Source: a virus. Taken from it: 64,000 bases of DNA. Made by a program: the position numbers and the translations under genes. Below, in pieces: positions 4,101 through 31,118 of this stretch. The DNA is taken from positions 1 through 64,000 of IMG/VR virus record IMGVR_UViG_3300032782_000007; one strand, given 5' to 3'. Each line of letters begins with the position of its first letter. Within the stretch, counting starts at the first letter, position 1. Below the pieces are notes generated by a model that searched no databases, was not told the DNA's origin, and saw only the letters and a program-made list of their open reading frames with translations.

Positions 4101-4421
4101 GACGAACACCTGTTCAAGGAGCTGGTAGCACTCGAGGAACACACAAAAGGTGTAAATCGCAAGATCGATCACCCGAAAAAAGGCTCGAAAGATCAATCAG
4201 ATAGCTTGGCTGGTGTTGTTTTCACCCTATCGCAGCAGCGGTTGGTGGCTCCGCTGCCGATCATGAAAGGGCTCATGCAGGACAACGACCCGTGGATGCA
4301 CGAACAGCAGCAGTCGTATTTGGCGGGAAATCGGGGGGCCAACGAGAATACGGGGCTGCTTCCGGCGTTTCTTACAGGCGATGGCGGGGATCCTGATTGG
4401 GGAGACGGCTGGAATTTCTGA
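1134..4421 (+). CDS. terL: Terminase large subunit containing an intein
   Basis: Walker A GGIGSGKT, Walker B ALIDEAAF, motif III LVSS, RNase H-like nuclease (HIHVDLG, SYDSWQS, KIDHP..GSKDQSDSLAG). Confidence 0.92.
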   Translation: MAISIINGRAVTQRLPEETEMLLKQDLARLSPAEREVVDLILKELEERNDPSAVPSEEPSLIELLGQAEYKTPPVDMETFVKDPYYLGETCSNIYPKLLADLKEMFEGGYSEAILCLHPDTPIPLLDGTTATIAKLAERWQSDPEPFWVYSCRPDGSVLPALAEQPRCTGEDDYYRVRLEDGSHFVGNARHRMVLRDGTKRTIEELKAGDSLMPFQTRLSKRSQGRRIEGYELVLDNKIEREVYTHVCVESLNGPIDSKIETIHHVNFRKTDNRPSNLTRMPWKDHRLLHARAKRAYFAENPEVRANLVSRQRQAASDPSSPLRKGHLEYMRSEKGRRHARASLEKWNITPEEKRAVLAERAKTGRERRWQGEGADEQKAAAAERMRARNLAGNAKFAGRRTWIARSEEAKKAHTARLVARNKEGRVRRPDVTLESILSARAGGATTIKAVSVALGCSTTRVRSVLREAGIERGTLFRARNHCVVSVEHIGRGPVYCMTVPQTENFAICTLNDEGAYTRNGVYSSNTGGIGSGKTFTASIGICRVLYEISCMRDPHAGFGLAKDTNISFLALSVNESLAQKVVFENLVVKLKASAYFNEQFPFATSKTELRFPHNVWVAPRATTATSALGLNVIGALIDEAAFLGTSKTAAGEIDKADTIYHAILRRMKSRFERQGKLPGMLFLVSSKTSDDDFTARRIQQSLNDPSVYVTDYTVWQTKPDAYYNQKRFWVLCGNSELGSRILEDNEDPEKLRPTLPEGVVLLDVPIDFRKDFERDLESAIRDIGGISSSSLRPYIQRREKIKEAIDPGLSHPFSTAVYDMSKGGTFMWSRMVGERRERIMGYGDRPILRPLLNPAANRHIHVDLGLKHDAAALCMAHVSGHKDVIRRSEDGREYVEKAPVYTVDCMLRIVPPTGGEIVFGDIRHLIYDLIAHGYTVTCVSYDSWQSTDGLQILGQRGINAEMISVDTSPEPYDTLKTALYENRVRLYHDEHLFKELVALEEHTKGVNRKIDHPKKGSKDQSDSLAGVVFTLSQQRLVAPLPIMKGLMQDNDPWMHEQQQSYLAGNRGANENTGLLPAFLTGDGGDPDWGDGWNF
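1479..2711 (+). mobile_element. Intein (411 aa) with HNH endonuclease in TerL
   Basis: Starts CLHPDT, has NARHR block B and HNH IHHVNFRKTDNRPSNL..H..LH, ends VYCMTV...GVYSSN/T just before Walker A. Confidence 0.88.
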
Positions 4422-5178: not shown

Positions 5179-8100
5179 GTGGGATTCATCGGCGACGCGG
5201 TAAATAGGGTCCGAGGCTGGATCCGCCAAGACAAAGAGCACACGGCGTTCCAGTTCGCCAAAGGCACGACCGCATCCGGCTACCCCAGCAGCGGAAGCGA
5301 CCTACTTCAAGCGTATGGGTATGACGTTCTCAGCGACTACCTCAAGCTTGAACAGGACCTTCTCTCCAGGTTCGTCGACTACGAGGAGATGGCCGATCAC
5401 CCTTTGATTGCCACCGCCCTGGAAATCTACGCGGACGATGCGACCCAGCACGACTACCACGTAGGTCGCCCCCTGTGGCTGAGTAGCCCCGACAAGACCA
5501 TCGAGGAGATCGGCGAAGACCTCTTCCATCGAACCCTCCGAATCGAAGAAGAGATCTGGAGTATCGCGCGGACGCTAGCCCTATACGGGCAAAATTACGA
5601 AGAGCTGCTTGTTACCGATCAAGGAGTGCGTGGACTCAACTACCTCGCGCCGCCGACGGTTCGCCGAATCGAGGGTACTCGCGGCGAACTATATGGATTT
5701 GTTCAAGATTTCAAAGGTCGGTTTGGGCACTGTTTGGCCTCCGGCTCCCGTGTTTGGGGCGTAAGCGGTCTAACGGAAATTCAGCAGTTCGACGAAGGCA
5801 AAGTCCTCGGGTACAAACCGGTAAAGGGGGTGCGTCCTGCCCTCGAATCGCCAGTCCGATCTCCGACCGCGGTTCTAGGAGGGGCGATCAAGACGCTGCC
5901 AGTGGTACGAAGGCACAGTAACGGTACACAACGCGTACTTCGAATTCGGACTCGTCACCGGGAAATCGTGGTAACAGCCGATCACCCCTTATTGGCCGTG
6001 CAGCCTTCCGAGGCCGGTCGTACGGGTGAGCCTACCTGGGTAAAAGCAAAAGACCTGCGACTAGTAAGACAGTCTGGTGGTAAGAAGAACATCGACTACG
6101 CGAAGTCGGCGAAACTTGTCATCTGCACACGAATGCCGGCGGGCCGTGTGCCGGAATGGTCAGAGATTTGGTCTGAGGACCCTGACGACTACACGACCTC
6201 TTGGGGTAGCCAACCCAAGAAGCTCACACTACCGGATCGTCCTACCCCTGAATTCTGCCGGCTTTTCGGATTTCTCCTGGGAGACGGTTGGCTCGACGAA
6301 GGTAACGTTTGCTACGCCCGCGGCGAGTATCCGGAGCTGAATGACTACTATGACGGACTGTTGAACTCGTATGGGCTTACACCTAGAATCAAAAACGACG
6401 GCGAACAGACCTGCGCGGGCGGTGTCTACCTGGCAAGACTGTTGGTCTCGCTCGGTTGGATCCAGGGTTCCCACAATAAACGGGTTCCGAGGTGGGTCTA
6501 CGGCCTCCCCGAGGAACACCGAGAGGCCTTTCTCAGGGGGTTCATCGATGCCGACGGGTGGGATCTACGGAGCAAAGCCGGACTGGTCATGCATCAGTTT
6601 GAGCTGGCAAATTACGATCTTGTCCGAGATCTGAAAAATCTTATTGACGGACTCGGCTACCACTGCGGGAATATCGGAAAACAGGTCAATAAGGTAGGCG
6701 ACACAATTCACAACCGTCGAACAGGCAAAGACGTTGTGGTCCAGACACGCGCCGACTCTTTTACGTGCTGCTATAGTGAGCTAAAGTTCGAAGCGCCGCT
6801 TGTAGCGGAGAACGTGATAAGCATCGTCGATCACGGCGAAGCAGAGGTTTTCGATCTCGAGGTCGACGATGAGGCCCATAACTTCATCGCAGACGGCGTT
6901 GTTGTTCACAATTCTCCGGCGGAATTCCAGCAGATTCTGGCTATGCGATCGGCGATGCTCCAGGGGCGATCTAACGGTCAAGGGACGATCGCCGGCATGG
7001 AACGTCTATCTGCGTTCGAGGATTGGGAGGTCGTTCACTTCCGAATCCACACCAAACAACGACGTGCCATATACGGGAGTTGCCTTGTCGGCTCAAGCCG
7101 CGTTTGGACGCCGGACGGAGTTAAAGCGATCGCGGACATCCGATCTGGAGATCGTGTGTTTACGCGCAAAGCGGGTCGTCTGCAGACTACGAAAGTTCTG
7201 GATCAGGTCTGCAACGGAGTGAAGCCTGTTTTCCGGGTGAGGACCACGCACAGAGAGATCACGCTAACAGCGAATCACCCGCTTCTGGTCGATCTCGGCG
7301 GTCACGGAAAGAACCGCTGGCGCCCAGTCGAAGAACTTAGAATCGGCGACAAGCTTGTGTTTGCGGCACGAATGCCGGAGACTCGGCCGCCGCCTCCTCT
7401 CGGGCTCAGATTACTGCGCGTCGACGACGACACGGAAGTGCGTCTTACCGCGCGCGGGGCCGCAGCTCTTCGCCAACAAACGCGAGAGAGCCACTACTCG
7501 CCGAGAGATAGCGGACTGCGACCGTTAGCCGCAAAACTGGGAATCACGCGAGCAGTTTTGGAACTTCTCTTGGAAGGGGGGTCAGCTGTTCCGCTGAAGA
7601 CGCTTAGAGCCCTGTTCGACGAAGCGGGTCTGCCGCTATTTGAGGGGAGTTGGACAAAAAAGCTTCAGGACGAGCGACTCCGGCTACCAGATTTCGTAGA
7701 ACCTTGGTTTGCGCGCCTGTACGGATTTCTTCTCGGCGACGGCTGGCTGACGGACGGCCAGGTATTGTTCGCGCTCGGCGTGGACGAAGAACGCAACAAG
7801 TTCTATGAAGGTTTGCTGGAAAAGTGTGGACTGCCGACAGCCCGTAGCGGTCGATATGACGAGCCGGGCGTAGAAACGCAATCGTACGTTAGCAGTCAAG
7901 CACTAGTCGGCGTCCTTAGGGAACTTGGGTGGATCGATGGTGCGCACTTCAAGCGTGTTCCGGCATGGGTTTACACGCTTCCGTTTGAGCACCGCAAGGA
8001 ATTCCTAGAGGGATTCATTGACGCCGATGGTTGGGAAACATACGAAGGGAAGTACCTGCACACCGAACTCTGCAACGATCCCCTCGTGCGAGACATCAAA

Positions 8101-9609
8101 GCTCTGATCGACGGCCTAGGGTGGACGAGCGGTAATGTGCGGACTCGCGGCCCTCGTACAGGCGTGATAAAGCGTTCTAACGGCAAAGAAAAACTGATTG
8201 TAGGTACCGGCGGCGCCTTGGTGACCTACCACGAGACAGTCCTCGAATCGCAGGAGTTCGGCAGCGAGGAGATCATCTCGATCGACCCGGCGGGCGAAGA
8301 GGCGGTCTACGATATTGAGGTCGCAAACAACGAGCACAACTTCATTGCCGACGGGCTTGTAGTCCACAATTCGATCCTAGACAGCGCCCGCTGGATCTTC
8401 AAACGGCTTGTGTTGCTTGAAGACACGGCGATGATTTACCGCCTTACCAGGGGCGCAGAGAGGTTCGCCTATTACGTAGACACAGGCAACCTTCCTCCGG
8501 CGGAAGCGCTCGCCTACTTGAATCGCGTACGACAGCAGAACAAGAAGAAGAAGTACGTCAACAACCTCACGGGAAAGATGGATCTCAAGCACTCCATCTT
8601 GAACCAACAGGACGATGTTTTCGTGCCGACCCGGCAAGGAGTAGATGGGACTCGAATTGAAGTCCTAGGTGCGCCTAGCTGGCAAAGCATGGAAGATATT
8701 CAGTATTTTTTGGATCAGCTGTTTGCAGCAATCAAGGTTCCGAAGAGTTACTTGGCACAGGATCAGTCGGACACTCACAGCTCGCTCAGCTCGCGTGACG
8801 TACGGTTCGCGCGGACGATTCTCAGGGTGCAGCGTGAGCTTCGAAATGGGTTTGCCAAGATCATGCGGGTCCATTTGGCGGCGCTTGGGATCGATCCAAA
8901 CCGCGTCGACTACTCGATGCACATGACGGTTCCAAGTGCGATCTTCGAGTTGGCGCAGATGGAAGTCTTGAATGCGCGCGCGGACCTTTGCGGGCGTCTC
9001 CGTGAGATGGTTTCCCTGCACTACCTGCTCTCGACGGTCCTCAAACTGAGTGACGAGGAGATCGCGCTCGTGATGCGTCAGCGCGAGGAAGAAGCCGACG
9101 AAGAGGCGACGATTCAGGCGCGCACGCAGAGCATGATCCAGAAAGCGGTGGCTGCGGCGGGAATGGAAGGCCAAGCGCAGGGTCAGATCGACACGACGCA
9201 GGCGATGAACGCGGCTGGAATGCAGACCCCGCAGCAGCAACAGCAGCAGGCGCAGGCTGCCCAGATGGCGCAACAGCAACAGGCTCAGGCGCAGCAAGCT
9301 CAGGCGGCGCAACAGGCCGCGCGAAAAGAGAGTCGAATTGGGGGCCCGCTGATCCGGATCCGGGACGGCGTTCGACCGGTGGAGTATTACGGGCTCGAGC
9401 GGAGACTGTTTGAGGGGGAAGCAAAGTCTCGTGCGGACCGATCGCGGCTCGAGTCGAAGCTGGATAGGCTTGGATTTACGAGTCAGCAGATGCAGGAGAA
9501 ACTACGCGCGCGGTCCCATGAGGATCGAATGATCCACTCGCGGCTGCGGGAGCTGGGGGGACTGGTGCGGGATCTCAACATCGAGGTTCGAGGTCTCCGC
9601 CGCTACTAA
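5179..9609 (+). CDS. T4 gp20-like portal protein with two inteins
   Basis: Motifs LLEDTAMIYRLTR, YYVDTGNLPP, GTRIEVLG, EDIQYFLDQLFAAIKVP; about 652 aa after splicing; Gln-rich C-terminus. Confidence 0.92.
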   Translation: MGFIGDAVNRVRGWIRQDKEHTAFQFAKGTTASGYPSSGSDLLQAYGYDVLSDYLKLEQDLLSRFVDYEEMADHPLIATALEIYADDATQHDYHVGRPLWLSSPDKTIEEIGEDLFHRTLRIEEEIWSIARTLALYGQNYEELLVTDQGVRGLNYLAPPTVRRIEGTRGELYGFVQDFKGRFGHCLASGSRVWGVSGLTEIQQFDEGKVLGYKPVKGVRPALESPVRSPTAVLGGAIKTLPVVRRHSNGTQRVLRIRTRHREIVVTADHPLLAVQPSEAGRTGEPTWVKAKDLRLVRQSGGKKNIDYAKSAKLVICTRMPAGRVPEWSEIWSEDPDDYTTSWGSQPKKLTLPDRPTPEFCRLFGFLLGDGWLDEGNVCYARGEYPELNDYYDGLLNSYGLTPRIKNDGEQTCAGGVYLARLLVSLGWIQGSHNKRVPRWVYGLPEEHREAFLRGFIDADGWDLRSKAGLVMHQFELANYDLVRDLKNLIDGLGYHCGNIGKQVNKVGDTIHNRRTGKDVVVQTRADSFTCCYSELKFEAPLVAENVISIVDHGEAEVFDLEVDDEAHNFIADGVVVHNSPAEFQQILAMRSAMLQGRSNGQGTIAGMERLSAFEDWEVVHFRIHTKQRRAIYGSCLVGSSRVWTPDGVKAIADIRSGDRVFTRKAGRLQTTKVLDQVCNGVKPVFRVRTTHREITLTANHPLLVDLGGHGKNRWRPVEELRIGDKLVFAARMPETRPPPPLGLRLLRVDDDTEVRLTARGAAALRQQTRESHYSPRDSGLRPLAAKLGITRAVLELLLEGGSAVPLKTLRALFDEAGLPLFEGSWTKKLQDERLRLPDFVEPWFARLYGFLLGDGWLTDGQVLFALGVDEERNKFYEGLLEKCGLPTARSGRYDEPGVETQSYVSSQALVGVLRELGWIDGAHFKRVPAWVYTLPFEHRKEFLEGFIDADGWETYEGKYLHTELCNDPLVRDIKALIDGLGWTSGNVRTRGPRTGVIKRSNGKEKLIVGTGGALVTYHETVLESQEFGSEEIISIDPAGEEAVYDIEVANNEHNFIADGLVVHNSILDSARWIFKRLVLLEDTAMIYRLTRGAERFAYYVDTGNLPPAEALAYLNRVRQQNKKKKYVNNLTGKMDLKHSILNQQDDVFVPTRQGVDGTRIEVLGAPSWQSMEDIQYFLDQLFAAIKVPKSYLAQDQSDTHSSLSSRDVRFARTILRVQRELRNGFAKIMRVHLAALGIDPNRVDYSMHMTVPSAIFELAQMEVLNARADLCGRLREMVSLHYLLSTVLKLSDEEIALVMRQREEEADEEATIQARTQSMIQKAVAAAGMEGQAQGQIDTTQAMNAAGMQTPQQQQQQAQAAQMAQQQQAQAQQAQAAQQAARKESRIGGPLIRIRDGVRPVEYYGLERRLFEGEAKSRADRSRLESKLDRLGFTSQQMQEKLRARSHEDRMIHSRLRELGGLVRDLNIEVRGLRRY
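5731..6912 (+). mobile_element. Portal intein 1 (394 aa, LAGLIDADG)
   Basis: CLASGS...TADHP...GFLLGDGW...GFIDADGW...HNFIADGVVVHN/S. Confidence 0.93.
7081..8370 (+). mobile_element. Portal intein 2 (430 aa, LAGLIDADG)
   Basis: CLVGSS...TANHP...GFLLGDGW...GFIDADGW...HNFIADGLVVHN/S. Confidence 0.93.
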
Positions 9610-9627: not shown

Positions 9628-9672
9628 AGTCAACGAATATCGTTGACTGTTTCGGGAAACCACCTTTAGCGT
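9628..9672 (+). promoter_or_regulatory. Sigma70-like promoter with an inverted repeat over the -35
   Basis: AGTCAACGA-ata-TCGTTGACT; TTGACT 9643-9648, 18-nt spacer, TAGCGT 9667-9672, start codon 5 nt later. Confidence 0.55.
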
Positions 9673-13738: not shown

Positions 13739-15247
13739 ATGTCTACAGAAGCACGTGAAATATTGGCAGAGCAGCAGGCGCGGACGATCGCCGACAAGAG
13801 CTACGTCCGAAGCCTTGTTCAGAAGTGGGGCGAGTTTCTCGAGGGGATTCCGGACAAGACGGAACAGCAGCGCTACACGCTCGGCGTGGCGGCGATCCTC
13901 ATGGAGAACCAGTGCCAGCACCTCTTGACGATGAACGAGGACACGCGAACGGCCAACGTTGGTTCGTTCACGAAGTTCATCTTCCCGATCCTGCGCCGGG
14001 TCTTCCCGAACCTGATCGCGAACGAGATCGTCTCGGTACAGCCGATGACGGCTCCGACGGCGGCGGTCTTCTACCTCGACTACGTCTACGGCACGACCAA
14101 GGGCCAGACGCAGGCGGGAAACGTCTTCCCGCGTGACTTCGACCGCAACTACTCCTCGGAGTACGTGCAGGGCGAAATCCTTTGGACGGGTGACGGTACC
14201 CACGGTGGTGGTGCGGGCACGGCGATCTCGCTGAGCCTCGCGTTCAACCCAGTTCGTCCGCTCAACACGACGCTCGGCTTCTCCTGCGTGGTTCAGGAAG
14301 AGGACTCGACGGGCACGGCGGTCCAGGTGGCGACCGACAACGGAACGGGTGGATTCACCTTCGTTCCGGCTGGCGGATCCACCGCGGGCACGATCAACTA
14401 CTCGAACGGCGCGATCTCTGGATTCAAGTTCCAGAACGCTCCGGCGAGCGGAAACAAGGTCCGAGCCTACTACTACTACGACGGGGAGCTGAACCAGAAG
14501 GTTCCGCAGATCAACCTCGACGTCAAGCAGGCGCCGGTTCAGGCCCAGCCGCGTCGACTGAAGGCGCTCTGGTCGGCAGAGGCCGCTGAGGACCTCCGCG
14601 CGTTCCACGGGATCGACGCTGAGACCGAAATGGTTTCGGCTGTCGCCCAGGACATCGCGCTCGAGATCGACCGTGAGATCGTCAACGATCTCTTCGCGGC
14701 CTCGACGGGAACGACCGCGTCGTTCGACCGTGTACCCCCGGCGGGTATCGCGGAGATCGACCACCTCCGCGCGATGATCACGCAGATCTCGACGGTGTCG
14801 AACCTCATCCACAAGAAAACGCTGCGTGCGCCCGCGAACTTCATCGTCACGTCCCCGGACGTGTCGGCGCTGATCGCGCAGCTCACCACGCACGGTGACT
14901 ACCGTCCGCTCTGGGTCAGCGGCGGCGAATCCCCGTACGGCCCGGCAGACATGCCGCGTCCGCTCACCCAGCACGGGCAGTTCGGTATCTACAAGACCGG
15001 AACGCTCATGAACAAGTGGATGGTCTACGAAGACCCGTTCTTCACGCGCGATCAGATGCTGATCGGGCTCAAGGGCGGAAGCTTCCTCGACGCCGGATAC
15101 GTCTGGGCGCCGTACATCCCGCTTCAGGTGACTCCGACCTTCCTCGATCCGGCAGACTTTTCCTTCAGGAAGGGCCTCCGCACGCGTTACGCTAAGAAGT
15201 TGCTTCGAAGCGAATTCTACGGCCAAATGCGAATTCTTAATCTTTGA
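13739..15247 (+). CDS. Major capsid protein, T4 gp23-like
   Basis: RRVFPNLIANEIVSVQPM, RRLKALWSAEAAEDLRAFHGIDAETE, ALEIDREI, DAGYVWAPYIPL, GLRTRYA. Confidence 0.95.
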   Translation: MSTEAREILAEQQARTIADKSYVRSLVQKWGEFLEGIPDKTEQQRYTLGVAAILMENQCQHLLTMNEDTRTANVGSFTKFIFPILRRVFPNLIANEIVSVQPMTAPTAAVFYLDYVYGTTKGQTQAGNVFPRDFDRNYSSEYVQGEILWTGDGTHGGGAGTAISLSLAFNPVRPLNTTLGFSCVVQEEDSTGTAVQVATDNGTGGFTFVPAGGSTAGTINYSNGAISGFKFQNAPASGNKVRAYYYYDGELNQKVPQINLDVKQAPVQAQPRRLKALWSAEAAEDLRAFHGIDAETEMVSAVAQDIALEIDREIVNDLFAASTGTTASFDRVPPAGIAEIDHLRAMITQISTVSNLIHKKTLRAPANFIVTSPDVSALIAQLTTHGDYRPLWVSGGESPYGPADMPRPLTQHGQFGIYKTGTLMNKWMVYEDPFFTRDQMLIGLKGGSFLDAGYVWAPYIPLQVTPTFLDPADFSFRKGLRTRYAKKLLRSEFYGQMRILNL

Positions 15248-15306: not shown

Positions 15307-15364
15307 AAGGGTCCACACAAAATTTGTGTTGAACGTGCACGCCTCGGAGCGTATAACTCTCGGC

Positions 15365-16465
15365 ATGGGTCGAGTCGCAGGGAAGAAGCACGAGAAGCCG
15401 CGGGTATACTTGGCGCCCGAGCAGAAAACAGCATTGGTCCGTCGATACAACGAGGCGTTAGCCTCGAACGAGTTCCTCACGCAGGCCCAGCTGGGGGCGG
15501 AGTTCGGAATCACGCAGGTAGCGGCAAGCAAGATTCTCCGTGCGGCGGGGGTGAGGACGCGTTCCCGTGAGGAGGCGTGCCCGACGCGGATAGATCCTCA
15601 GGAGGCAGCTAGGATCTACCTGGAGAACCCTCGAATGACGATCGAAGAGGTCGGCGAGCTGTACGACGTCGGTTACACGGCGACTCGAGACCAGCTGCTC
15701 AAAGCGGGAGTACCGTTGAGGACGTCAACGGACTACGCGCGATACGCGTGCAACAGGAATTTCTTTGCTGAGGTGAACCCTACGACCGCGTACTTTGCGG
15801 GGTTCATCGCCGCTGACGGATACATCACCAAATCGGGTTTGTCCGTGAATTTCGGGCTCCATCCGAAAGACGCGGTGATTCTGACGAATCTCAAGGCAGC
15901 CTGTGGATCGGAGCATCCAATAGTGGTCAGGCCTAACAACACAGGGAGGTTATACAGCTGGCTCTCGGTGTGCAGCATCGACTGGGTGCGGGACCTCGAG
16001 CGTCACTACAATATCGTCAACGCGAAGTCGTTGATCCTTAGGCCTCCGAATCTGACCGATGAGGGCCTGATCTGGCACTTCATCCGCGGCTACTTCGACG
16101 GCGATGGACATGCAAGTCTTGCCGGTCTGGTACATATCATCACAGGTTCCCAGGCGTTTATGGGCTGGCTGAAAGAGATTCTAGGAGAGCCCGGGCACAT
16201 CCAGGAACACGAGTGGCTCAACGAGGACAAGGAGACCTACATTTGCGGCTACGGCGCCTGGTGGTCTAAACTTGCGGACGCTAAACGGATTGCGCTGAAA
16301 ATGTACGCCGACTCCACGCCCGCCATCCGGCTGGAGCGTAAATTTCTGCGTTTGCAACGGCATTTCGGGCCTGGGCCTCAGACGGCGCCCGAAGAGTTCG
16401 AGGACGTTCTCGAGCTAGACGACGCGGACGACGCCCCCGAGTTGGAACGGATTAAAGGCGCTTGA
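15365..16465 (+). CDS. Free-standing LAGLIDADG homing endonuclease with N-terminal HTH repeats
   Basis: AYFAGFIAADGYI and HFIRGYFDGDGH; TTGAAC-17-TATAAC lies 7 nt before ATG 15365. Confidence 0.9.
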   Translation: MGRVAGKKHEKPRVYLAPEQKTALVRRYNEALASNEFLTQAQLGAEFGITQVAASKILRAAGVRTRSREEACPTRIDPQEAARIYLENPRMTIEEVGELYDVGYTATRDQLLKAGVPLRTSTDYARYACNRNFFAEVNPTTAYFAGFIAADGYITKSGLSVNFGLHPKDAVILTNLKAACGSEHPIVVRPNNTGRLYSWLSVCSIDWVRDLERHYNIVNAKSLILRPPNLTDEGLIWHFIRGYFDGDGHASLAGLVHIITGSQAFMGWLKEILGEPGHIQEHEWLNEDKETYICGYGAWWSKLADAKRIALKMYADSTPAIRLERKFLRLQRHFGPGPQTAPEEFEDVLELDDADDAPELERIKGA

Positions 16466-16884
16466 AATCCGTGTCGGAATTGTGTCTCCACAGCTCCAAA
16501 GGGATCCTTCGGTACGAGATCGTCCCGGGGTACGGGTACCGAGCGGTCGTGGAGATCGACGAGGAGATCTCCAATTTCGCGCGCGCCCTGATCCCCAAAT
16601 CGATTCGTTGGAACCGACCCCTGTACGCGCCGCACATCTCCGTGATTCGCAAGGAGACTCCAAGGAACTTGTACGTCTGGGGGGCCTACCAGGGGGAGGA
16701 GATCCCCTTCGAGTATGACTCGACGCTCTTTAACGATGCCACCTACTGGTGGCTGAGGTGCTGGAGTCGGCGCCTAGAGACGATCAGAGAGGAACTGGGA
16801 CTCCCCACGCACACCTCGTACACGAGGGCCCCTGACGGCGCACAGTGCTTTCACACGACGGTGGCGAATACCAAGGGAATGTAG
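16462..16884 (+). CDS. 2H phosphoesterase (Acb1-like fold)
   Basis: Two HxS/T motifs, APHISV and FHTTV, in 140 aa. Confidence 0.75.
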   Translation: MKSVSELCLHSSKGILRYEIVPGYGYRAVVEIDEEISNFARALIPKSIRWNRPLYAPHISVIRKETPRNLYVWGAYQGEEIPFEYDSTLFNDATYWWLRCWSRRLETIREELGLPTHTSYTRAPDGAQCFHTTVANTKGM

Positions 16885-16936
16885 TGGACATACGACGCGC
16901 GTGACAATCGTCTCAGTCCGTGGTAGCTTCTCGCGT

Positions 16937-17230
16937 ATGAAGAACGAGACGATTGAGACGACGGGGATGAAGATCGCGCAACTCATGTGGCCGCACGCGA
17001 TTCTCGTGGGGGCCCTTGTGGGTCGTTCCACGGGGTCGAAGGCTGGCGACAAGCACTCCGCGATGTTGTACGGAAGCCTCGACGGGAGCAACTGCTCCTT
17101 CGAGGTCATGGACGAGGGCGCGACGAAGCTCGAGGCGTTCCGCAAGGTGGTCCGAAAGTGCCTCCGGACGACAACTGGGGCTGCGCGCGCGGAGATCGAG
17201 CAGCTCGCTGCGGCAGCCGAACGCGAGTAG
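16937..17230 (+). CDS. Hypothetical protein (leaderless)
   Basis: GTGACA-17-TAGCTT (16901-16929) lies 7 nt before the ATG. Confidence 0.55.
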   Translation: MKNETIETTGMKIAQLMWPHAILVGALVGRSTGSKAGDKHSAMLYGSLDGSNCSFEVMDEGATKLEAFRKVVRKCLRTTTGAARAEIEQLAAAAERE

Positions 17231-17264
17231 TCGTGCGCGCCTTTTGGCGGGTGTTGAGGGTGAA

Positions 17265-17792
17265 ATGCTAATTCTCGATATCGGCGCGCGTCCAATCCGC
17301 GTCACTTACACCTACGAAGTAGCCACCGAATACCCGCCGCAGCGCGGCGACTCCTACCAGGACCGTTCCACGCACGCGGAGTGGGTGGTAGCGGAGGTCG
17401 TTACGGCTCCGCCGGCGATTCGTAATCCGCCCGCGACGAAGCCCCTGTACGAGGTGACACTGCGATCTCCCTGGGGAGCGCCTGCTGTGCCGATGCGTTT
17501 GATCGCGATGTACGAGCAGGCGCTCGGCGGGTACCTCCAGAGAACCCCTACCGGCTCCGTTCTCGGGCTCGGAGAGCTTCCAGGGCTAGCCCACTCGTGG
17601 ATGTTCAGGGAGAACATCAACGCCAACGGGGAGCGCGAGTTCGCTCTGTTTGTGGGACCGCGTGTGGGATCTTTCGTCGAGTTCTGTGGCAGCCTCATCG
17701 AGTACAAAACGCCGTGGGAGGATCGGGACTCGCTTCCGTGGTGGTTCGTCGAGCAATCGCAGTCGCAGTTTCGTAAGGACTTCCATGAATAA
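17265..17792 (+). CDS. Hypothetical protein
   Basis: GAGG RBS; tiles with neighbouring genes. Confidence 0.55.
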   Translation: MLILDIGARPIRVTYTYEVATEYPPQRGDSYQDRSTHAEWVVAEVVTAPPAIRNPPATKPLYEVTLRSPWGAPAVPMRLIAMYEQALGGYLQRTPTGSVLGLGELPGLAHSWMFRENINANGEREFALFVGPRVGSFVEFCGSLIEYKTPWEDRDSLPWWFVEQSQSQFRKDFHE

Positions 17793-18144
17793 CGGTTATC
17801 CAGGCGTGGGCCAAACACCGCTGTTTGCTCCGCGACTGCGTGTAGAGCTGGAACACGTCAAGCACGGTATCCAGACGATGCTCACGGCGCATACGGAAGA
17901 ACTTCAGCAGATGGCGGAGGAAGCGCTCGCGGAGCTTCTCGTTCCAGAGAAGATCGCCGAGCGAGTACGTCAGGAGGTTGAGGCCCAGCTTCGGCGGGTC
18001 CTGGACGAGACGATTGTCACTGCGATTCGATCGTCCGTCGGCGATGTCGTATTCGAACGAGTTCGAGAGGCTACGTTGTTGGCGGCGAAAACGGAGGTAG
18101 AACGCCTCTCGAAGCGCGCCAAGCGCGGCCGCCAGCGACGTTGA
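17785..18144 (+). CDS. Hypothetical helical protein
   Basis: AAGGA RBS; overlaps the upstream stop. Confidence 0.6.
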   Translation: MNNGYPGVGQTPLFAPRLRVELEHVKHGIQTMLTAHTEELQQMAEEALAELLVPEKIAERVRQEVEAQLRRVLDETIVTAIRSSVGDVVFERVREATLLAAKTEVERLSKRAKRGRQRR

Positions 18145-18169
18145 CAATCCCTTCCATCTCGCGTAGTGT
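18141..18169 (+). promoter_or_regulatory. Sigma70 promoter giving a leaderless transcript
   Basis: TTGACA-17-TAGTGT, 6 nt before ATG 18176. Confidence 0.75.
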
Positions 18170-18175
18170 CGCTGT

Positions 18176-18904
18176 ATGAACCGACGAGATCTGCTCAAGC
18201 TAGTTGGGGCGCTTCCTGTGCTCGGAATGTCGCGGACCGCTGAAGGGGCGCCGGAGGCAGCGAAGGTCCGTACGGACCTCTCGAAAGATACGTTCGTCTT
18301 AGCAGACAACGTCGAGCCGATCGCCGCAGATCCGGCGAGGGCGGCGGACCGCCTGAATGCGAACTTTGACAGGCTCGCAGCTTCGCACCCAGCCTGGTGG
18401 TCCCCTGCGGAGGAGGATCTGCAGCTGCAACGACGGATCTGCAATCGTCTGTGCAGATTGCTGATCGATCTGCGGTGTCAGTTCCTGGACGGGCACGAGG
18501 GGGAAGATCCCGCGGCGCCTTTCTACCCTCACCAGAGCCCCACATTGATTCGCGATCACGTGGTGTTCGCAACAACGGATAGTCCCTTTGCGGTCCTCAA
18601 CGGCCAGGCCAAGCCTGCGTACGCGCGACGTTTGCGCGTGGCGTCGATCCCGCAGTTCCGAGGCATGCTCGACGACGTACGGGCGTACCACGGAATCGAC
18701 GTGGACTATGAAATCGTCAGCGGTGTGGCCTCGCAGACTGCGCTTGAGGTGTGCGCAGAGATTCGCAAAGACTGGGAGCGCGGTGTGAAGACGCGAGTCT
18801 ACGCTCTCTACATGGGTCCGTTCGTTCAAGGAGTGGACCCGGAGGTTGCAAAAGAGTTCTCCGTAGAGCGCCGATCGATGATCCGGTACGCGAAGTTCAC
18901 ATGA
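18176..18904 (+). CDS. Truncated major-capsid paralog with a Tat-like signal peptide
   Basis: N-terminus MNRRDLLKLVGALPVLGMSRTAEGA; 18/33 identity to the MCP block DLRAFHGID...EIVND; C-terminal FS-x7-RYAK as in the MCP. Confidence 0.8.
   Translation: MNRRDLLKLVGALPVLGMSRTAEGAPEAAKVRTDLSKDTFVLADNVEPIAADPARAADRLNANFDRLAASHPAWWSPAEEDLQLQRRICNRLCRLLIDLRCQFLDGHEGEDPAAPFYPHQSPTLIRDHVVFATTDSPFAVLNGQAKPAYARRLRVASIPQFRGMLDDVRAYHGIDVDYEIVSGVASQTALEVCAEIRKDWERGVKTRVYALYMGPFVQGVDPEVAKEFSVERRSMIRYAKFT
18266..18277. repeat. Palindrome copy 5 (intragenic; 16-bp perfect palindrome 18264-18279)
   Basis: gaagGTCCGTACGGACctct. Confidence 0.95.
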
Positions 18905-19287
18905 AGAACAAGCTGACCGGAGAGCTACAGAAGATGCGCGAGATGACCGATCTCATCGAGGAGGCACGCAAGCGTGGCCCGATGAGCGACGCAGAGCGCC
19001 GTGAGCAAGCGGCATCGTTCGCGTTCGGAAATCTCGCGCTCACCTCCCAGTGGAGGGACGCAACGCACGAGGAGTTGAAAGTACTTCGTGAGCGCTGCCG
19101 TCGGGCCGCGGGGTGCGAAGGAACCGCCTGTAAGCTGCCTCCTGCGGGTTGGCGGTGTTCGCGCGAGCCAGGCCACGAGGGTCCGTGTGCGGCCCGTCCT
19201 GGTTCTGCGTCCGAACCAAGCAGCGCGCCCACGCACCCGCCGTCGGACGGTCCGAACGGGTTTCGTGGTTGTCAGCGCTGCGAATGA
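18901..19287 (+). CDS. Hypothetical protein with a Cys/His motif
   Basis: CKLPPAGWRCSREPGHEGPCAA; ATGA overlap with the upstream gene. Confidence 0.6.
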   Translation: MKNKLTGELQKMREMTDLIEEARKRGPMSDAERREQAASFAFGNLALTSQWRDATHEELKVLRERCRRAAGCEGTACKLPPAGWRCSREPGHEGPCAARPGSASEPSSAPTHPPSDGPNGFRGCQRCE

Positions 19288-19873
19288 GGGGATCCATGAC
19301 TACGCGTTGTGTCCGTAAAGGCGAAGAAGCCGCGAATATGGAGCGGGCCGCGACAGAGGCGCGCAAAGAAGAGCGACGGATGGTGGTGAACTTCCTCTAT
19401 TCGTTCAATGCGCCTGAACTGGCCGAACGGATTGCGGCGGGCGAGCATACGGACGAACTAGACCCGAGGTAGATCATGTGGAATCCATTTCGAGTCAACG
19501 CGCCTCCTCCGCCCGAGCCGTCTGAGCCGGCGCCCCCGCCTCCTCCTCCGCCTCCTCCGTTCAATGCAAAGAGCAAGTGTCCGAAGTGCGGTAGCGGAAG
19601 CGGTTACACACGCTTCGTTGAAAGCAAAAACTTGATGAACAGGGTGTGCATGGATTGCACCGCCCACTGGTGGGAAACGCCGCTCGATCGCGCCACCTAG
19701 GAAGAACGCACATGGACGCAAAAACCGGACAAATCTATCTCAACGTAAGCAAAGAAGAGGCCAAGAAGAGAGGCCTGGTCCCGATTCCCGCCGATCAAGC
19801 GGAGAAGGTGATCAACATGAATCGGCGCGAGCGTCGAGCGTGGGCGGCGCAGCAGCGTCGGGCGAAGAAGTAG
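19284..19873 (+). other. Three small hypothetical ORFs (19284-19472, 19476-19700 Pro-rich Zn ribbon, 19712-19873 basic)
   Basis: Tightly tiled ORFs; CPKC...CMDC in the second. Confidence 0.55.
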
Positions 19874-19879
19874 GCTCCG

Positions 19880-20164
19880 ATGGGTGCAAGTTTCTTCTCC
19901 GAAAGAGGACTGGGCAAGACGGCTGAGATCGCGTTCGAGCAGCTTGTTGAAGAGGCTCGGTTCGATTTCGGACACGCAGGGTATACAGGCACGATCGCGG
20001 AGAAAACCGAGTTCAAGATGATCGAGTGCCCCAAAGGGTGGGACCCCGAGGACTGGATCGAGGAGGACGAGGCACTGGCGCAGGTCGAGGACAAGTGGGG
20101 CCCTGCCGGTTGTATCGATCTCGGCGGCGGGGAATGGCTTTTCTTTGGGTTCGCGTCCTCGTAA
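19880..20164 (+). CDS. Acidic hypothetical phage protein
   Basis: GHAGYTGTIAEK...DKWGPAGCI...WLFFGFASS. Confidence 0.7.
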   Translation: MGASFFSERGLGKTAEIAFEQLVEEARFDFGHAGYTGTIAEKTEFKMIECPKGWDPEDWIEEDEALAQVEDKWGPAGCIDLGGGEWLFFGFASS

Positions 20165-20177
20165 GCTTAGAAGCAGA

Positions 20178-22620
20178 ATGAATGAGGATTGCAAACACGC
20201 ACGCGTAGCGCCAGAAGTGTGCGATCAGACTCTCGGCGTGTACTGCCTGGACTGCAACGAGGGGCTTGTCGTGTGCTGGATGAAAGAGCATATTCCCGAG
20301 TCGCTGTGGAATCGTGCGTGTACGAACGACGTAGACGCGGTTCCGTGCGAGCGTGACCGGGACAATTACTGCGCTATCTGCGGGGAAGAGTTCTCCTTAT
20401 GAGCAGGAAACCCGATCCCCAAAAGGCCCCTGCGTTCGTCTCATGCTCCTGTTACGAGGAACGAGGAGAGCGCGTTGAGTGCCAGTCCTGCTACGAGGAG
20501 CGGCAGCTCGAGGCAGAGTCATACACAGAGGAGCTGGACGAAGACCAGCGCACCCCGGAGGTTCGCATAGAGAAGGTGCTCGCCTGGGCAGGCTTTCGCA
20601 GCACCGAAACGAACCACGAAGCGATACAGAAGGTGGCGCGGGCGATCCATGACGACGCCTACCGGGCGGGCCAGCACTCGCGCCGGCGCCGAGCGACGAA
20701 CCGAAGCTCTCCGTACCAACCGAAAAAGCTGCCACGGATCTAAAGGTCCGGAGAACCCGCCGCGCGATGCATCCCTATCGAGAGCTTCCGCCGACCCACC
20801 TCTACCTGGTGAGTTACAAACGAAGTCTTTCGTTTGCAGCTCCGTACAACGTGATGCGATGCGAGAGACTTGTCTGGGCTCGAGACGACCCTGATGCTCT
20901 AACGCAAGTCATCGCAGATGGCGCGGAAGACGTCAGCTGCGTGACTGTCAGGAAAATGCGATGAAGTATGACGTACCGCGAGACAAAAATGGGGTCAAGC
21001 TTGAGGTGGGGGATCGCGTTGAGGACGTGAACGACGCGTGGCCGCACCGGACCAGATACGGAACGATCCTTCTCGTCTACGAGGACTGCGCCGGAGTAAT
21101 CGACTGTCGGGTTCTTTGGGACGAGGCCGCTGAGTACACGCCGATTCACGGAAGTGCTGTTAGGAGACTGCCTCCGCCAAATCGCTTGATTCGGACGCTC
21201 GCGCGGATCGGACTTGTGACGGTCCGGAGTAACCGGACGGTACGTTGGCCCTTTTACGTAGCCCCGCGCTGGATGTGGGGTCCTTTGTGGCGTCTAGAAC
21301 CGGTGTTCGGACTCTTCCGTAACAGGCCGGACGTCATGAAATGGATTCCTGGGCGTCTTCTCCCGCTCCGATGGGGATTCCGGTGCTGGATCTTCGAGGT
21401 GGGGGATCGAGGGTCGGCTCAGTGGTCGCGTCGGGATCAACGGCTCGTGATCTGATAAAATGTTACCGATGAACGACGACTACGAGGATCCACAGGCCTG
21501 TAGTGATCCCTCGATGATCCTGACGCCCGAAGAGTGTCTGGCACTAATCGAGTCGCGCCCAGCAGCATCGCGCGCTCTAGGCCGTTACGAGGGGTTCGCG
21601 ATGGCCTCGGGGCTTATAGGGATGGCTCTGGCGATCCGGGAGCTGTACACGTGGGCCGACGATCCGAGCGCGGACGCCCCGTGTCCGGACTGTCACGCGC
21701 CCGAGGGTAAGGCCTGTCGCAATTGGTGTACGTTCACAGGGTGACCCATGCAGGTAGAGATGTCGCTGGCAGAGCTACTGATGAACGCCATTGGTGCGGG
21801 CCACGTACACGGCGTGCAGTTCAAGCGCGGGGCCAGCGACGACAGGAAGACCTTCGAGGACCTGCAGCGGGTGATCAGCAAACGTCTCGACGGGGCACGA
21901 ACGGTCGCAGTCGAGGAGGCGCTTCGCGAGCTACACGAGAAGCATCCCCCGTTTCGACTGCTCGCGGAGGTTCGCCGCCTACGTAAGGCGCTTCTCCAAA
22001 TCCCGACAGGCCTAGCGTGCCGGCTTTGCGGAAGGATGCCTACTCATGCAGTCACGCTCTGCGAGAGCCGCATGCTCTGCGAGAGCTGCATCGACGATTT
22101 GACTGAGATCGGAAGTGGCGGCAAGTGACAATCGGCCGCCAACTGTGGTAACGAAAGAAGGATGTTCGATCCGACAATCGAGGCCGCGCTGCATAAGCTC
22201 TACGAGAAGGTTGTTCTCACGGACGAAGACTGGGAACGGCTTGGAGTGGAGATGCGTACTGAGGGCGCAGGCGCAGTATCCGCGCGCATTGACCGACTTG
22301 TGACGGCGTTCACGGCTGTCAATGCGCCTCCGATTCCGGGCCTAAAGCCCTCTTTAGCCGCGGTTATCGAGTATGACCGCGTGACTCGGCTGGAAGCCCA
22401 AACGGCTGTCTATAAGAGCGAGAAACAAGCGTTCGAAGACTGGTCGAACACATTCCAGAATGAGAACGTAATCGACGCTCCCTGGGAAGCCAACCGGATG
22501 GGATTGTTGATTGCGTGGCAGCTTTCGCGTCTCAACAAGAACCTCGAAGATCTCAAGAACATACTCGATCTCCGCTGGGAAGCTAACCGGATGCTCGAGA
22601 TCATGCGAGAGCCGAAATGA
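20178..22620 (+). other. Run of small hypothetical ORFs (20178-20402, 20399-20743, 20767-20964, 20961-21455, 21460-21744, 21748-22128, 22162-22620)
   Basis: Tiled or overlapping ORFs, several with CxxC pairs; no function recognised. Confidence 0.55.
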
Positions 22621-24050: not shown

Positions 24051-24437
24051 ATGTCTCGAGAAATCCGTTTGGAACTGGTTTTGCGCGCTCGAACCGAGGA
24101 GGGCAAGCCTCTAACGGTTGCTGAGGCCGCGCTCCCTCTGACCCTGCGCGCGCCACAAGCAGGCCCTGCGCAGACGAAGGGCGACGGTGAAGCGGATTTG
24201 GCCGGCGCGATCGAGGCTGCGCTCGCAGAGGTTTCTGCGGCGGCTCTTGCGGGACCGTTGATTCGCAGTCTCCGTGTGAATGGGGGCGCGAGCGAGATCA
24301 CGCGTAGTGGGCGAACGGTTTTCTACGTCGACGTGGGAGACATGGAGCCTGGCGAGGCGTCCCGTTACGTCGAGAGTGTCAGGGACGCGCTTGTTCTGCG
24401 CGACGGTGAGGTCATTCAAGCAACGAGGTCCAAGTGA
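24051..24437 (+). CDS. Small protein carrying a portal-like motif
   Basis: RTVFYVDVGDMEPGEASRYVESVRD is 11/25 identical to portal RFAYYVDTGNLPPAEALAYLNRVRQ; TTGCAA-18-TACACT lies 6 nt upstream. Confidence 0.7.
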   Translation: MSREIRLELVLRARTEEGKPLTVAEAALPLTLRAPQAGPAQTKGDGEADLAGAIEAALAEVSAAALAGPLIRSLRVNGGASEITRSGRTVFYVDVGDMEPGEASRYVESVRDALVLRDGEVIQATRSK

Positions 24438-30371: not shown

Positions 30372-31106
30372 GTGGGGGACGACGCTTTCGACGCCAGGGT
30401 TGCAGGACTAGCTCGAACAGGGACGGTAGAGATCCGCGATTTTGATATCGGGATCATGACAACCCTCGGAGGGGTCGCAAACGCAGATCCACTAAAAGGG
30501 CCGATCGGGGTGTTCATTCCGCAGGTGCCCGGAGTGTGCCCGCCTGACGGCTACCAGGGAGTTCCGGTGGTGTTTGCGAACTCCGAAGACGTCAACACCG
30601 ACTTCAAGCTTCCCTACATTCTTGTGAAACGCGACGACTGGTCGCCGGCCAACGAGCGTTGGATGCCCGGGGCGGTTCAGTACCGGGCTCCTGCGGACGG
30701 TGCGCGACTGCTCCGTGCGACGGGTCCGCAAGGCCAGGTCAAAACCGGTTGGGATCGCATGGAGCAGTTGGCCCAGGCGATCCCCTACGACATCACGTAC
30801 ACAATCTCGGTTTCGGGCCGCTTTCGAGGGGCGGGCCAGCGTAACAATGCGAACGCCCTGTTCAAGCACGTTTTGAGGACTTTCCCGCCCTACGGGTGGA
30901 TGTGGCTCACCGATAGCATCGGCGACATGCGGTCGTACGAGGCCTTTAATGAGGGCATTTCCGATCTCGACAACATCGTTGATGTACAGGATCGAACACT
31001 GGGCCAGGCAATTACGCTGCGTGTAGAGGGCGAATTGGATCTTAAGGACCCTGTTTCAGTCCAAACAGTGAGAACGCCGTTGACGCGTAGAATAATGCCC
31101 CGTTAG
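30372..31106 (+). CDS. Tail terminator/completion protein, T4 gp15-like
   Basis: VPVVFANSE, KLPYILV, IPYDITYTI; upstream of the sheath. Confidence 0.7.
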   Translation: MGDDAFDARVAGLARTGTVEIRDFDIGIMTTLGGVANADPLKGPIGVFIPQVPGVCPPDGYQGVPVVFANSEDVNTDFKLPYILVKRDDWSPANERWMPGAVQYRAPADGARLLRATGPQGQVKTGWDRMEQLAQAIPYDITYTISVSGRFRGAGQRNNANALFKHVLRTFPPYGWMWLTDSIGDMRSYEAFNEGISDLDNIVDVQDRTLGQAITLRVEGELDLKDPVSVQTVRTPLTRRIMPR

Positions 31107-31118
31107 GCTGATCACTGA

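What the first reader, a model, noticed from the sequence alone, without database searches (positions are those of the whole stretch)
18176..18904. Mini major-capsid paralog with a twin-arginine signal peptide
Seen: N-terminus NRRDLLK plus a hydrophobic stretch and AEGA. Block DVRAYHGIDVDYEIVSGVASQTALEVCAEIRKD (18674-18772) is 18/33 identical to MCP 14591-14689 and joins almost directly to FSVERRSMIRYAK (MCP FSFRKGLRTRYAK), so the intervening domain is deleted. The gene has its own consensus promoter and a palindrome copy. Inference: an HK97-fold P-domain core re-routed to the membrane or periplasm, possibly for exclusion, as a decoy or to anchor assembly. Caveat: export fits poorly with a cytoplasmic decoy role, and Tat-like N-termini occur on other phage proteins.
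Basis: partly seen in the sequence, partly recalled or inferred. Interest (0 to 1): 0.85.

Follow-up and report, generated by a model that had tools for sequence, protein, structure and literature searches.

The report
Export-tagged miniature capsid protein copy
An uncultured T4-like phage carries an intact small gene that joins a bacterial twin-arginine (Tat) export-type leader to a shrunken copy of its own head-shell protein, a design that no paper I searched describes and whose job is untested.

Summary
ORF 18176-18904 (242 aa) is real, and its two blocks match the phage's own gp23-type capsid protein in the same order (E 1.4e-14 and 2.2e-6). Seven residues stand where the capsid protein has 136, its A-domain.

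An AlphaFold model from 28 relatives (pLDDT 85.9) finds T4 gp24 first, then mostly HK97-fold shells. An exhaustive search gave 40 family representatives. 28 of them start with [N/D/T]-R-R-x-[L/V/F]-L-[K/Q] and a short hydrophobic stretch, and 23 of those 28 have an AxA cleavage site. The window's own copy has none.

Leader and body are both under purifying selection (dN/dS 0.23 and 0.26). In three relatives the gene sits between thymidylate kinase and a DNA methyltransferase, so not among head genes. Here a TTGACA-17-TAGTGT element ends 6 nt before the ATG.

Best reading: an early, non-virion capsid mimic sent to the host Tat machinery. Export and function are both untested. About ten representatives lack the leader, which fits poorly with a purely periplasmic role.

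This scan has noted the same design on other DNA, in at least 19 genomes. Four literature searches found no description.

The parts
18141..18169 (+). Promoter-like element TTGACA-N17-TAGTGT. The -35 hexamer overlaps the stop codon of the upstream ORF. The -10 ends 6 nt before the ATG, so a leaderless transcript is inferred; there is no Shine-Dalgarno sequence.
   Evidence: Not called by the generic scan.
18176..18904 (+). Coding sequence of the 242-aa mini-capsid protein, stop codon included.
   Evidence: 40 family representatives. Five intact orthologs read as DNA.
18176..18250 (+). Tat-type leader, aa 1-25. It has RR at aa 3-4 (18182-18187), an 11-residue h-region LVGALPVLGMS (18200-18232), and a c-region with R20 but no canonical AxA site.
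   Evidence: Low pLDDT for residues 17-34 in the model.
18264..18279 (.). Perfect 16-bp palindrome AGGTCCGTACGGACCT. It is one copy of a motif scattered through the window.
18332..18469 (+). Two N-terminal helices of the mature part (aa 53-70 and 79-98), with family motifs LWxN and CxRFC. Their sequence shows no significant similarity to the MCP.
18563..18631 (+). Beta-hairpin region (aa 130-152), equivalent to the E-loop.
18608..18775 (+). Homology block 1 (aa 145-200): the E-loop return strand plus the spine helix, with the motif DVRAYHGIDVDYE. It matches MCP aa 266-318 (14534-14692) and T4 gp23 residues 255-316.
18776..18796 (+). Seven-residue junction (aa 201-207) that stands in place of MCP aa 319-454 (14693-15100), the A-domain region.
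18797..18901 (+). Homology block 2 (aa 208-242): the C-terminal P-domain strands. It matches MCP aa 455-488 (15101-15202).
13739..15247 (+). The phage's gp23-type major capsid protein (502 aa), the full-length paralog.
18901..19287 (+). Downstream 128-aa ORF whose ATG overlaps the mini gene's stop (ATGA). This neighbour is not conserved in relatives.

Best explanation
The gene encodes an accessory, non-virion protein. It is an old paralog of the phage's gp23-type major capsid protein that has lost the A-domain and the N-terminal and insertion parts. What remains is the E-loop strand, the spine helix and the P-domain strands, fused to a twin-arginine (Tat) leader.

Proposed course:
1. Host RNA polymerase transcribes the gene early, from the TTGACA-17-TAGTGT element, as a leaderless mRNA (inferred).
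2. The protein folds in the cytoplasm into an HK97 core without the A-domain (fold shown by model and homology).
3. The RR leader takes it to the host Tat receptor. It is then carried across the membrane or held at it (inferred from sequence only).
4. In most relatives signal peptidase would cut the leader off. In this copy cleavage is doubtful.
5. The body acts as a mimic of unassembled capsid protein, placed outside the assembly pool. It presents the most conserved gp23 core motif to a partner that normally meets the capsid protein.

My favoured partner is a host factor such as a capsid-sensing immunity protein or a chaperone. The Tat leader would then hold or remove that complex. This last step is speculation.
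For: The gene is real and under selection:
- 40 family representatives, almost all 174-279 aa long.
- Five orthologs read as DNA have no stop codons.
- The one unsaturated pair, L004-L007, gives dN/dS 0.25 overall, 0.23 for the leader and 0.26 for the body.

It derives from the MCP:
- Two blocks in the same order: E 1.4e-14 and 2.2e-6, and 2.4e-18 and 4.5e-5.
- The family profile hits T4 gp23 chains at E about 2e-8.
- Pfam Gp23 matches 14 of 28 relatives.
- The AF2 model has pLDDT 85.9 and pTM 0.79.
- In the full PDB-representative search T4 gp24 (1yue_A) came first: Z 6.5, rmsd 4.4, 134 residues aligned. Most of the 50 rows shown are HK97-fold capsid or encapsulin chains.

The leader:
- 28 of 40 representatives have RR plus an h-region of 8-22 residues. 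Of those 28, 23 have a strict AxA site and 21 have K/R in the c-region.
- Consensus [N/D/T]RRx[L/V/F]L[K/Q].
- Pfam TAT_signal matches 6 of 28 and TIGR01409 matches 2 of 28.
- It is the only such N-terminus in the window.
- In L005 a second gene with the same leader follows in tandem.

Not a head gene:
- In L003, L004 and L007 it lies after thymidylate kinase or a polymerase exonuclease subunit and before a DNA methyltransferase, with overlapping stop and start codons.
- Here it has a host-type promoter-like element of its own.
Against: - Export is not shown.
- The window's own protein matches no TAT or Gp23 HMM at E <= 10.
- It has no canonical AxA site. Its AEGA is followed by Pro, which by the recalled signal-peptidase rule blocks cleavage.
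- 12 of 40 representatives failed the leader rule. Two are short fragments (87 and 88 aa) and one begins within the h-region. Nine begin with Met near the mature N-terminus without a leader.
- Three of those nine lie on contigs of 51, 125 and 155 kb, so contig ends are unlikely to have cut them. I could not read their DNA to check the starts.
- No known partner for a capsid P-domain exists outside the cytoplasm.
- A decoy carrying the same epitope could trigger a sensor rather than block it.
- The VIA Z-scores (6.5 and below) are middling by the tool's own note, and Foldseek found nothing at E <= 0.001.
- The -10 hexamer is weak.
- Promoter-like hits in the window (5 on the + strand) are no more than shuffles give (4.5 on average).
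Confidence: 0.4

Rival explanations
1. It is a true periplasmic (or secreted) effector. After Tat export the soluble capsid-like core acts on the cell envelope. One example would be superinfection exclusion against incoming related phages, in the manner of T4 Imm or Sp.
For: - The leader features and their selection.
- The early-gene neighbourhood in relatives.
- A tandem second leader gene in L005, which suggests diversification.
- Precedent that phage early proteins block genome entry at the envelope: T4 Imm binds the tape measure protein (abstract of bioRxiv 10.64898/2026.03.06.709160). Passages of PMC13128918 also describe T4 Sie systems.
Against: - Capsid shells do not enter the periplasm, so conservation of an internal capsid core motif has no obvious target there.
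- Leader-less family members exist.
- There is no similarity to any known exclusion or defence family. PADLOC and PHROGs gave 0 families.
Confidence: 0.22
2. It is a cytoplasmic capsid-assembly factor or minor head component. The RR leader would be a membrane or protein-binding handle rather than an export signal. The core would dock on capsid protein through the E-loop and P-domain contacts, for example to nucleate, cap or size heads. T4 gp24 and the satellite protein Ccm are capsid paralogs with comparable assembly roles.
For: - It keeps the parts of the HK97 fold that, from general knowledge of HK97 capsids (recalled), make contacts between capsomers.
- gp24 is the top structural match, and a Ccm-containing procapsid entry (7rwz_B) is also listed.
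- Leader-less members exist.
- In this window the gene lies 3 kb after the capsid gene.
Against: - In three relatives it sits among nucleotide-metabolism and DNA-modification genes, not head genes.
- The RRxxLK, short h-region and AxA pattern is specific to Tat leaders and is under selection.
- An h-region of 11-15 residues is too short to span a membrane (recalled rule).
- Without the A-domain it cannot close a capsomer centre (inference).
Confidence: 0.13
3. It is a decaying duplicate or a gene-calling artefact with no function.
For: The window protein itself matches no Pfam, PHROG or NCBIfam model. No cultured phage has it.
Against: - 40 representatives with conserved length and motifs.
- Intact frames and dN/dS 0.25.
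- A confident fold.
Confidence: 0.02

Closest known systems
T4 major capsid protein gp23 and vertex paralog gp24 (Pfam PF07068; PDB 6UZC, 5VF3, 8T9R, 1YUE)
   Same: The E-loop return strand, the spine helix with the DLRAxHGIDxExE motif, and the C-terminal P-domain strands are homologous and in the same order. gp24 is the best structural match.
   Different: - There is no A-domain: 7 residues stand in place of 136.
- There is no gp23 insertion domain and no N-terminal propeptide.
- It is less than half the length.
- It carries a Tat-type leader.
- It is not in a head-gene cluster in relatives.
- The window protein does not reach the Pfam model.
Bacterial twin-arginine signal peptides (Pfam PF10518, NCBIfam TIGR01409)
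   Same: RR followed by x-[L/V/F]-L-[K/Q], an h-region that is mostly 11-17 residues long with a proline, basic residues in the c-region, and AxA sites in 23 of 28 leader-bearing representatives. The HMMs match some relatives.
   Different: - The passenger is a virus shell protein core. It has no invariant cysteine, and I saw no cofactor-binding motif.
- The n-region is only two residues long.
- This copy lacks a clear cleavage site.
- Export is untested.
T4 superinfection exclusion proteins Imm and Sp
   Same: They are phage accessory proteins that act at the envelope. Imm binds the incoming tape measure protein (abstract).
   Different: There is no sequence or fold relation. Imm and Sp are small membrane proteins (recalled), not capsid derivatives.
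SaPIbov5 Ccm, a capsid-protein homolog that redirects capsid size (PDB 7RWZ)
   Same: It is a capsid paralog re-used for something other than being the main shell protein. The entry is listed among the structural matches.
   Different: Ccm is a whole HK97 fold made by a satellite. It works inside the assembling head and has no export leader (recalled).
Gol region of T4 gp23 in the Gol/Lit/EF-Tu exclusion system
   Same: A short conserved piece of gp23 alone is enough to engage a host factor (passages of PMC3014915). This shows that capsid fragments can be biologically active.
   Different: The Gol region lies in the first quarter of gp23. hhalign found no match of the mini family to that part of the MCP. 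I saw a resemblance by eye only.

Membership tests
Gp23-type major capsid protein (PF07068) | Reaches the Pfam model | tested here: not met
   The window protein gave 0 families at E <= 10. 14 of 28 relatives match, best E 1.5e-12.
Gp23-type major capsid protein (PF07068) | Homologous E-loop strand, spine helix and C-terminal P-domain strands | tested here: met
   hhalign E 1.4e-14 and 2.2e-6. T4 gp23 chains at E about 2e-8.
Gp23-type major capsid protein (PF07068) | Complete HK97 fold with an A-domain that closes the capsomer | tested here: not met
   Mini aa 201-207 replace MCP aa 319-454. The model has no domain there.
Gp23-type major capsid protein (PF07068) | Present in virions as a shell subunit | not testable with these tools
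   Needs virion mass spectrometry. The gene context in relatives argues against it.
Tat (twin-arginine) substrates | RR motif at the junction of n-region and h-region, with the x-hydrophobic-L-K pattern | tested here: met
   NRRDLLK in the window protein. RR is invariant in the 28 of 40 representatives that carry the leader.
Tat (twin-arginine) substrates | Short, moderately hydrophobic h-region | tested here: met
   11 residues with mean Kyte-Doolittle 1.85 in the window protein. 8-22 residues across the family.
Tat (twin-arginine) substrates | Signal peptidase site (AxA) after the h-region | tested here: inconclusive
   The window protein has no strict site. 23 of 28 leader-bearing relatives do.
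Tat (twin-arginine) substrates | Match to the curated leader HMMs (PF10518, TIGR01409) | tested here: not met
   The window protein has no hit at E <= 10. PF10518 matches 6 of 28 relatives (best E 0.0031) and TIGR01409 matches 2 of 28 (best E 0.016). These models are short and HMMER's filters drop weak hits.
Tat (twin-arginine) substrates | Export that depends on TatABC and on the RR pair | not testable with these tools
   The host is unknown. No TatA or TatC gene was found in the 73-kb record.
Superinfection exclusion proteins | Blocks entry of a second phage when expressed | not testable with these tools
   This is an uncultured phage from a metagenome. No similarity to PADLOC or PHROG families.

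The most novel reading that the evidence does not exclude
Many unrelated uncultured phages may use one shared trick: they graft a Tat leader onto copies of their own virion proteins. The copies would bind host proteins that recognise unassembled capsid, such as immune sensors. The Tat pathway, which can carry folded complexes, would then hold those host proteins at the membrane or export them by hitchhiking. That would disarm capsid-sensing immunity before the late genes switch on. This gene would be the most complete passenger of that kind, a whole P-domain core.
Probability: 0.15. Interest if true: 0.9.

Novelty: new variant of a known kind. Interest (0 to 1): 0.62.

Why it matters
Capsid proteins are thought of as working only in the cytoplasm and in the particle. 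A conserved and selected family that joins a capsid core to an export leader means phages use their shell protein fold for a second job outside head assembly.

Capsid proteins are among the known triggers of bacterial immunity. Lit responds to the Gol region of gp23 (passages of PMC3014915), and the titles listed include direct activation of an immune system by a capsid protein and a TIR system that senses capsids. The family is therefore a concrete candidate for a new counter-defence or exclusion principle.

It is also a natural example of a stable HK97 core without the A-domain. That bears on how the fold evolved and can be engineered.

The first tests are simple: fractionation, RR-to-KK mutants and pull-downs.

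Tried and rejected
Searches that gave little or nothing:
- AF2 with only two sequences gave pLDDT 40.7 and was discarded.
- Foldseek against the PDB gave nothing at E <= 0.001.
- Foldseek against BFVD gave only weak rows: a 138-aa unnamed protein at E 6.6e-3, a Synechococcus phage S-CAM7 protein at E 0.17 and an Escherichia phage nieznany protein at E 0.23. I did not follow these up.
- tblastn against 50,697 phage records found no match.
- The scan of species genomes found no relative.
- The closest MCP-bearing record, LR756511.1 (35% MCP identity), holds only its MCP and no mini gene.
- Loci for the leader-less members P0026 and P0019 were not found in viral contigs, so I could not check their start codons.
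- No RNA holder was listed for the stretch. One DNA run from a wetland metagenome, probably the source, holds it.

Other negative or unusable results:
- A homotrimer of residues 36-242 in complex prediction returned 'no answer' with score 0.00. This is neither for nor against oligomers.
- The ESM Atlas feature hits to TAT_signal, [Fe] hydrogenase small subunit and Rieske leader clusters scored 0.78-0.86. That is below the tool's 0.9 line, so they are leads only.
- The resemblance I saw by eye between mini aa 112-140 and the gp23 Gol/N-arm motif got no support from hhalign. I dropped it.
- No inverted repeat of 12 nt or more was found by the repeat tool in 17000-20500. The palindrome was found by my own script.
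- dN/dS for every pair except L004-L007 is saturated (dS above 1.4 or undefined) and was not used.

Literature: searches found no paper on a capsid paralog with a Tat leader. I saw only listings, except for the papers named in the report. Supplements were not consulted.

Full report
WHAT IS THERE

The window is the first 64 kb of a 73,239-base linear IMG/VR virus record that CheckV rates 43% complete. GC content is 59.5%. All long genes lie on the + strand. They include:
- a terminase and a 1476-aa portal, both with endonuclease-like inserts;
- a gp21-type prohead protease and a gp23-type major capsid protein at 13739-15247 (Pfam Gp23 E 1.7e-70, phrog_138);
- a LAGLIDADG endonuclease directly after the capsid gene;
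- further on, a sheath and baseplate genes.

The nearest MCP in 50,697 phage records is only 35% identical and belongs to an uncultured 595-kb phage. Cyanophage and enterobacterial T4-like MCPs are at 23-31%. This is a distant, uncultured T4-like phage. The only sequencing run that holds the stretch is a wetland metagenome, probably its source.

THE OBSERVATION

ORF 18176-18904 is open from the first possible start and encodes 242 aa. BLASTP against the MCP gives 18/34 identities, E 4e-8. At DNA level the block is diverged, so this is not a recent duplication.

With a profile of 28 relatives, two blocks match in the same order:
- mini 145-200 with MCP 266-318: E 1.4e-14, 3.6e-16, 2.4e-18;
- mini 208-242 with MCP 455-488: E 2.2e-6, probability 89, 4.5e-5.

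Seven residues of the mini protein stand where the MCP has 136. The same profile hits T4 gp23 chains at E about 2e-8, at gp23 residues 255-316.

The promoter-like element and the palindrome are present, with the qualifications given under the observation check.

A REAL FAMILY

The word-based search found one relative. The exhaustive HMMER search of 1.84 billion representatives found 42 proteins at E <= 0.001. Forty are 87-279 aa long and belong to the mini family. The other two, P0041 (325 aa) and P0042 (504 aa), read as MCP sequences. No fused or longer form turned up.

Alignment A2 (28 sequences) shows conserved motifs through the whole mature part. In particular it shows RKxR...DLxAxHGIDxExE...ALEV..EIR, then YAxYLPP...DFSxxR....RYAK. 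These are the two MCP blocks.

Pfam Gp23 matches 14 of the 28 and TAT_signal matches 6 of the 28. The window's own protein reaches neither model.

Five orthologs that I could read as DNA are intact. The one pair that is not saturated (L004-L007, 72% identical) gives dN/dS 0.25. The leader alone gives 0.23 over 25 codons and the body 0.26.

FOLD

With two sequences AlphaFold failed (pLDDT 40.7). With A2 it gave pLDDT 85.9 and pTM 0.79. The model has:
- a disordered stretch, with pLDDT below 50 at residues 17-21 and 24-34;
- two helices (53-70 and 79-98);
- a four-strand hairpin region (130-152);
- a long broken helix (158-172 and 176-201);
- two long strands (208-217 and 234-241).

Foldseek found nothing significant. 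The full alignment against 48,161 PDB representatives put T4 gp24 first (Z 6.5, rmsd 4.4, 134 residues, model 62-242). Encapsulins, HK97, lambda, phiKZ and many other capsid chains followed. The Z values are middling by the tool's own caution. What carries weight is the list, most of whose rows are HK97-fold shells, taken together with the sequence homology.

The protein is therefore an HK97 core (E-loop, spine helix, P-domain sheet) without the A-domain.

THE LEADER

Of the 40 representatives, 28 begin with RR followed by an uncharged stretch of 8-22 residues. P0007 counts among the 28 because P0044, a longer member of its cluster, shows the missing MLTRR. The consensus is [N/D/T]-R-R-x-[L/V/F]-L-[K/Q]. 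Of the 28, 23 have a strict [AVST]-x-A site not followed by Pro, and 21 have K/R in the c-region.

These are the recalled hallmarks of Tat leaders, including the basic 'Sec-avoidance' residue. The curated HMMs support this only weakly: TAT_signal in 6 of 28 and TIGR01409 in 2 of 28. A weak profile hit to the leader region of E. coli PaoA (E 1.8) and the language-model neighbours are leads only.

In the window no other candidate start on either strand passes my rule.

The window's own copy has R20 in the c-region but no canonical cleavage site. It may be cut elsewhere or stay anchored.

AGAINST A PURELY EXPORTED ROLE

Twelve of the 40 representatives failed the leader rule:
- two are short fragments of 87 and 88 aa;
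- P0038 begins within the h-region;
- nine begin with Met close to the mature N-terminus.

Three of the nine lie on contigs of 51, 125 and 155 kb. Miscalled starts therefore remain possible.

CONTEXT

In L003, L004 (the same contig as L006) and L007 the gene follows thymidylate kinase or a DNA polymerase exonuclease subunit. Further upstream in L003 and L004 are a replicative helicase, ribonucleotide reductase, thymidylate synthase and, in L003, DHFR. A DNA methyltransferase comes directly after (DPPW type in L003 and L004, DPPY type in L007). In L003 and L004 the ORF coordinates show the upstream stop overlapping the mini start; in L007 the 5'-open upstream frame ends a few bases after the start.

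In L005 a second gene with a homologous leader follows with an ATGA overlap (hhalign E 6.9e-10 over 30 residues). The contig ends before its body can be seen.

In this window the gene lies in a stretch of small genes between head and neck genes. It has its own promoter-like element placed for a leaderless mRNA; the spacing rule is recalled. Similar TTGAC-like/TAGnnT pairs end 5-9 nt before the starts of ORFs at 9678, about 16937 and 31119. The total count is no higher than shuffles give.

These contexts point to early or middle expression and away from a virion role. This is inference.

MECHANISM

Shown:
- The gene is intact and under selection.
- It derives from the MCP.
- It has lost the A-domain.
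- The leader pattern is conserved.

Inferred:
- Transcription is early.
- The protein folds in the cytoplasm.
- The Tat receptor recognises the leader, leading to export or docking at the membrane.

Speculative: what the passenger does. The part shared with the MCP is the most conserved core of gp23-type proteins, and phages keep it under selection next to an export leader. I therefore favour mimicry of unassembled capsid protein toward a host partner. The Tat leader would place or remove the complex.

The rivals, with my odds, are a periplasmic effector such as an exclusion protein (0.22), a cytoplasmic assembly factor (0.13) and junk (0.02).

KNOWN BIOLOGY USED

- A short piece of gp23, the Gol region, is enough to engage EF-Tu and Lit (passages of PMC3014915).
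- T4 Imm blocks entry by binding the tape measure protein (abstract).
- T4 Sie systems are described as narrow self-protection (passages of PMC13128918).
- The Tat consensus, hitchhiker export, the signal-peptidase -3/-1/+1 rules and the nature of Ccm are recalled, not taken from calls.

EARLIER NOTES OF THIS SCAN

The same design, a Tat-type leader on pieces or copies of a phage's own capsid protein, has been noted in at least 19 other genomes. These include another soil T4-like phage. One such report was later priced at 85/100 for the observation and 34/100 for 'Tat export of decoys'.

These are unchecked AI notes. I used them as leads and tested three here:
- No TatA or TatC gene is in this record.
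- The small ORF at 24051-24437 does share 11/24 residues with the portal, E 2e-4.
- The Gol-region resemblance is not supported for this family.

VERDICT

This is a new variant of a known kind: a capsid paralog with a new architecture and an unknown, probably non-structural role. Four literature searches found no description.

Noticed in passing
window 1063, 4427, 10466, 13171, 18265, 25377, 41085, 45543, 52456, 60146 (start positions): The 14-bp palindrome GGTCCGTACGGACC occurs 10 times at up to 2 mismatches, against 0.31 expected. By my comparison with the ORF list, copies lie both inside genes and between them. It could be a binding site for a phage regulator or a modification or nuclease target.
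   Followed up: partly
window 24051-24437: This 128-aa ORF shares 11/24 residues with portal residues 1095-1118 (E 2e-4 for the single comparison). It is a second small gene in the same island that copies a virion-protein motif. It did not pass my rule for a Tat-like leader.
   Followed up: partly
L005 2371-2526: A second gene starting MNRRMVLK follows the mini homolog directly with an ATGA overlap. Its first 30 residues match the family leader (hhalign E 6.9e-10). The contig ends before the body.
   Followed up: partly
L003 8734-10995; L004 9345-11070; L007 2-1817: In relatives the mini gene is wedged between thymidylate kinase (in L003 followed by a polymerase exonuclease subunit) and a DNA methyltransferase. 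The methyltransferase is DPPW type in L003 and L004 and DPPY type in L007.
   Followed up: yes
window 1134-4421 and 5179-9609: The terminase large subunit (1095 aa) and the portal (1476 aa) are far longer than usual. Both carry HNH or LAGLIDADG endonuclease-like stretches, so inteins or inserted homing endonucleases are likely.
   Followed up: no
window 15326-16465: A LAGLIDADG-type homing endonuclease with an HTH/sigma-70 region-4-like N-terminus lies directly after the capsid gene.
   Followed up: no
window 9643-9672, 16901-16929, 31080-31109: Three more TTGAC-like/TAGnnT pairs end 5-9 nt before start codons of ORFs, as at the mini gene. This suggests leaderless early promoters. The total count is not above shuffles.
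   Followed up: partly
window 16462-16884: This 140-aa ORF has a weak 2H phosphoesterase match (Pfam 2H-SAK, E 0.026, below the cut-off) and matches phrog_12204 at E 1.5e-14.
   Followed up: no
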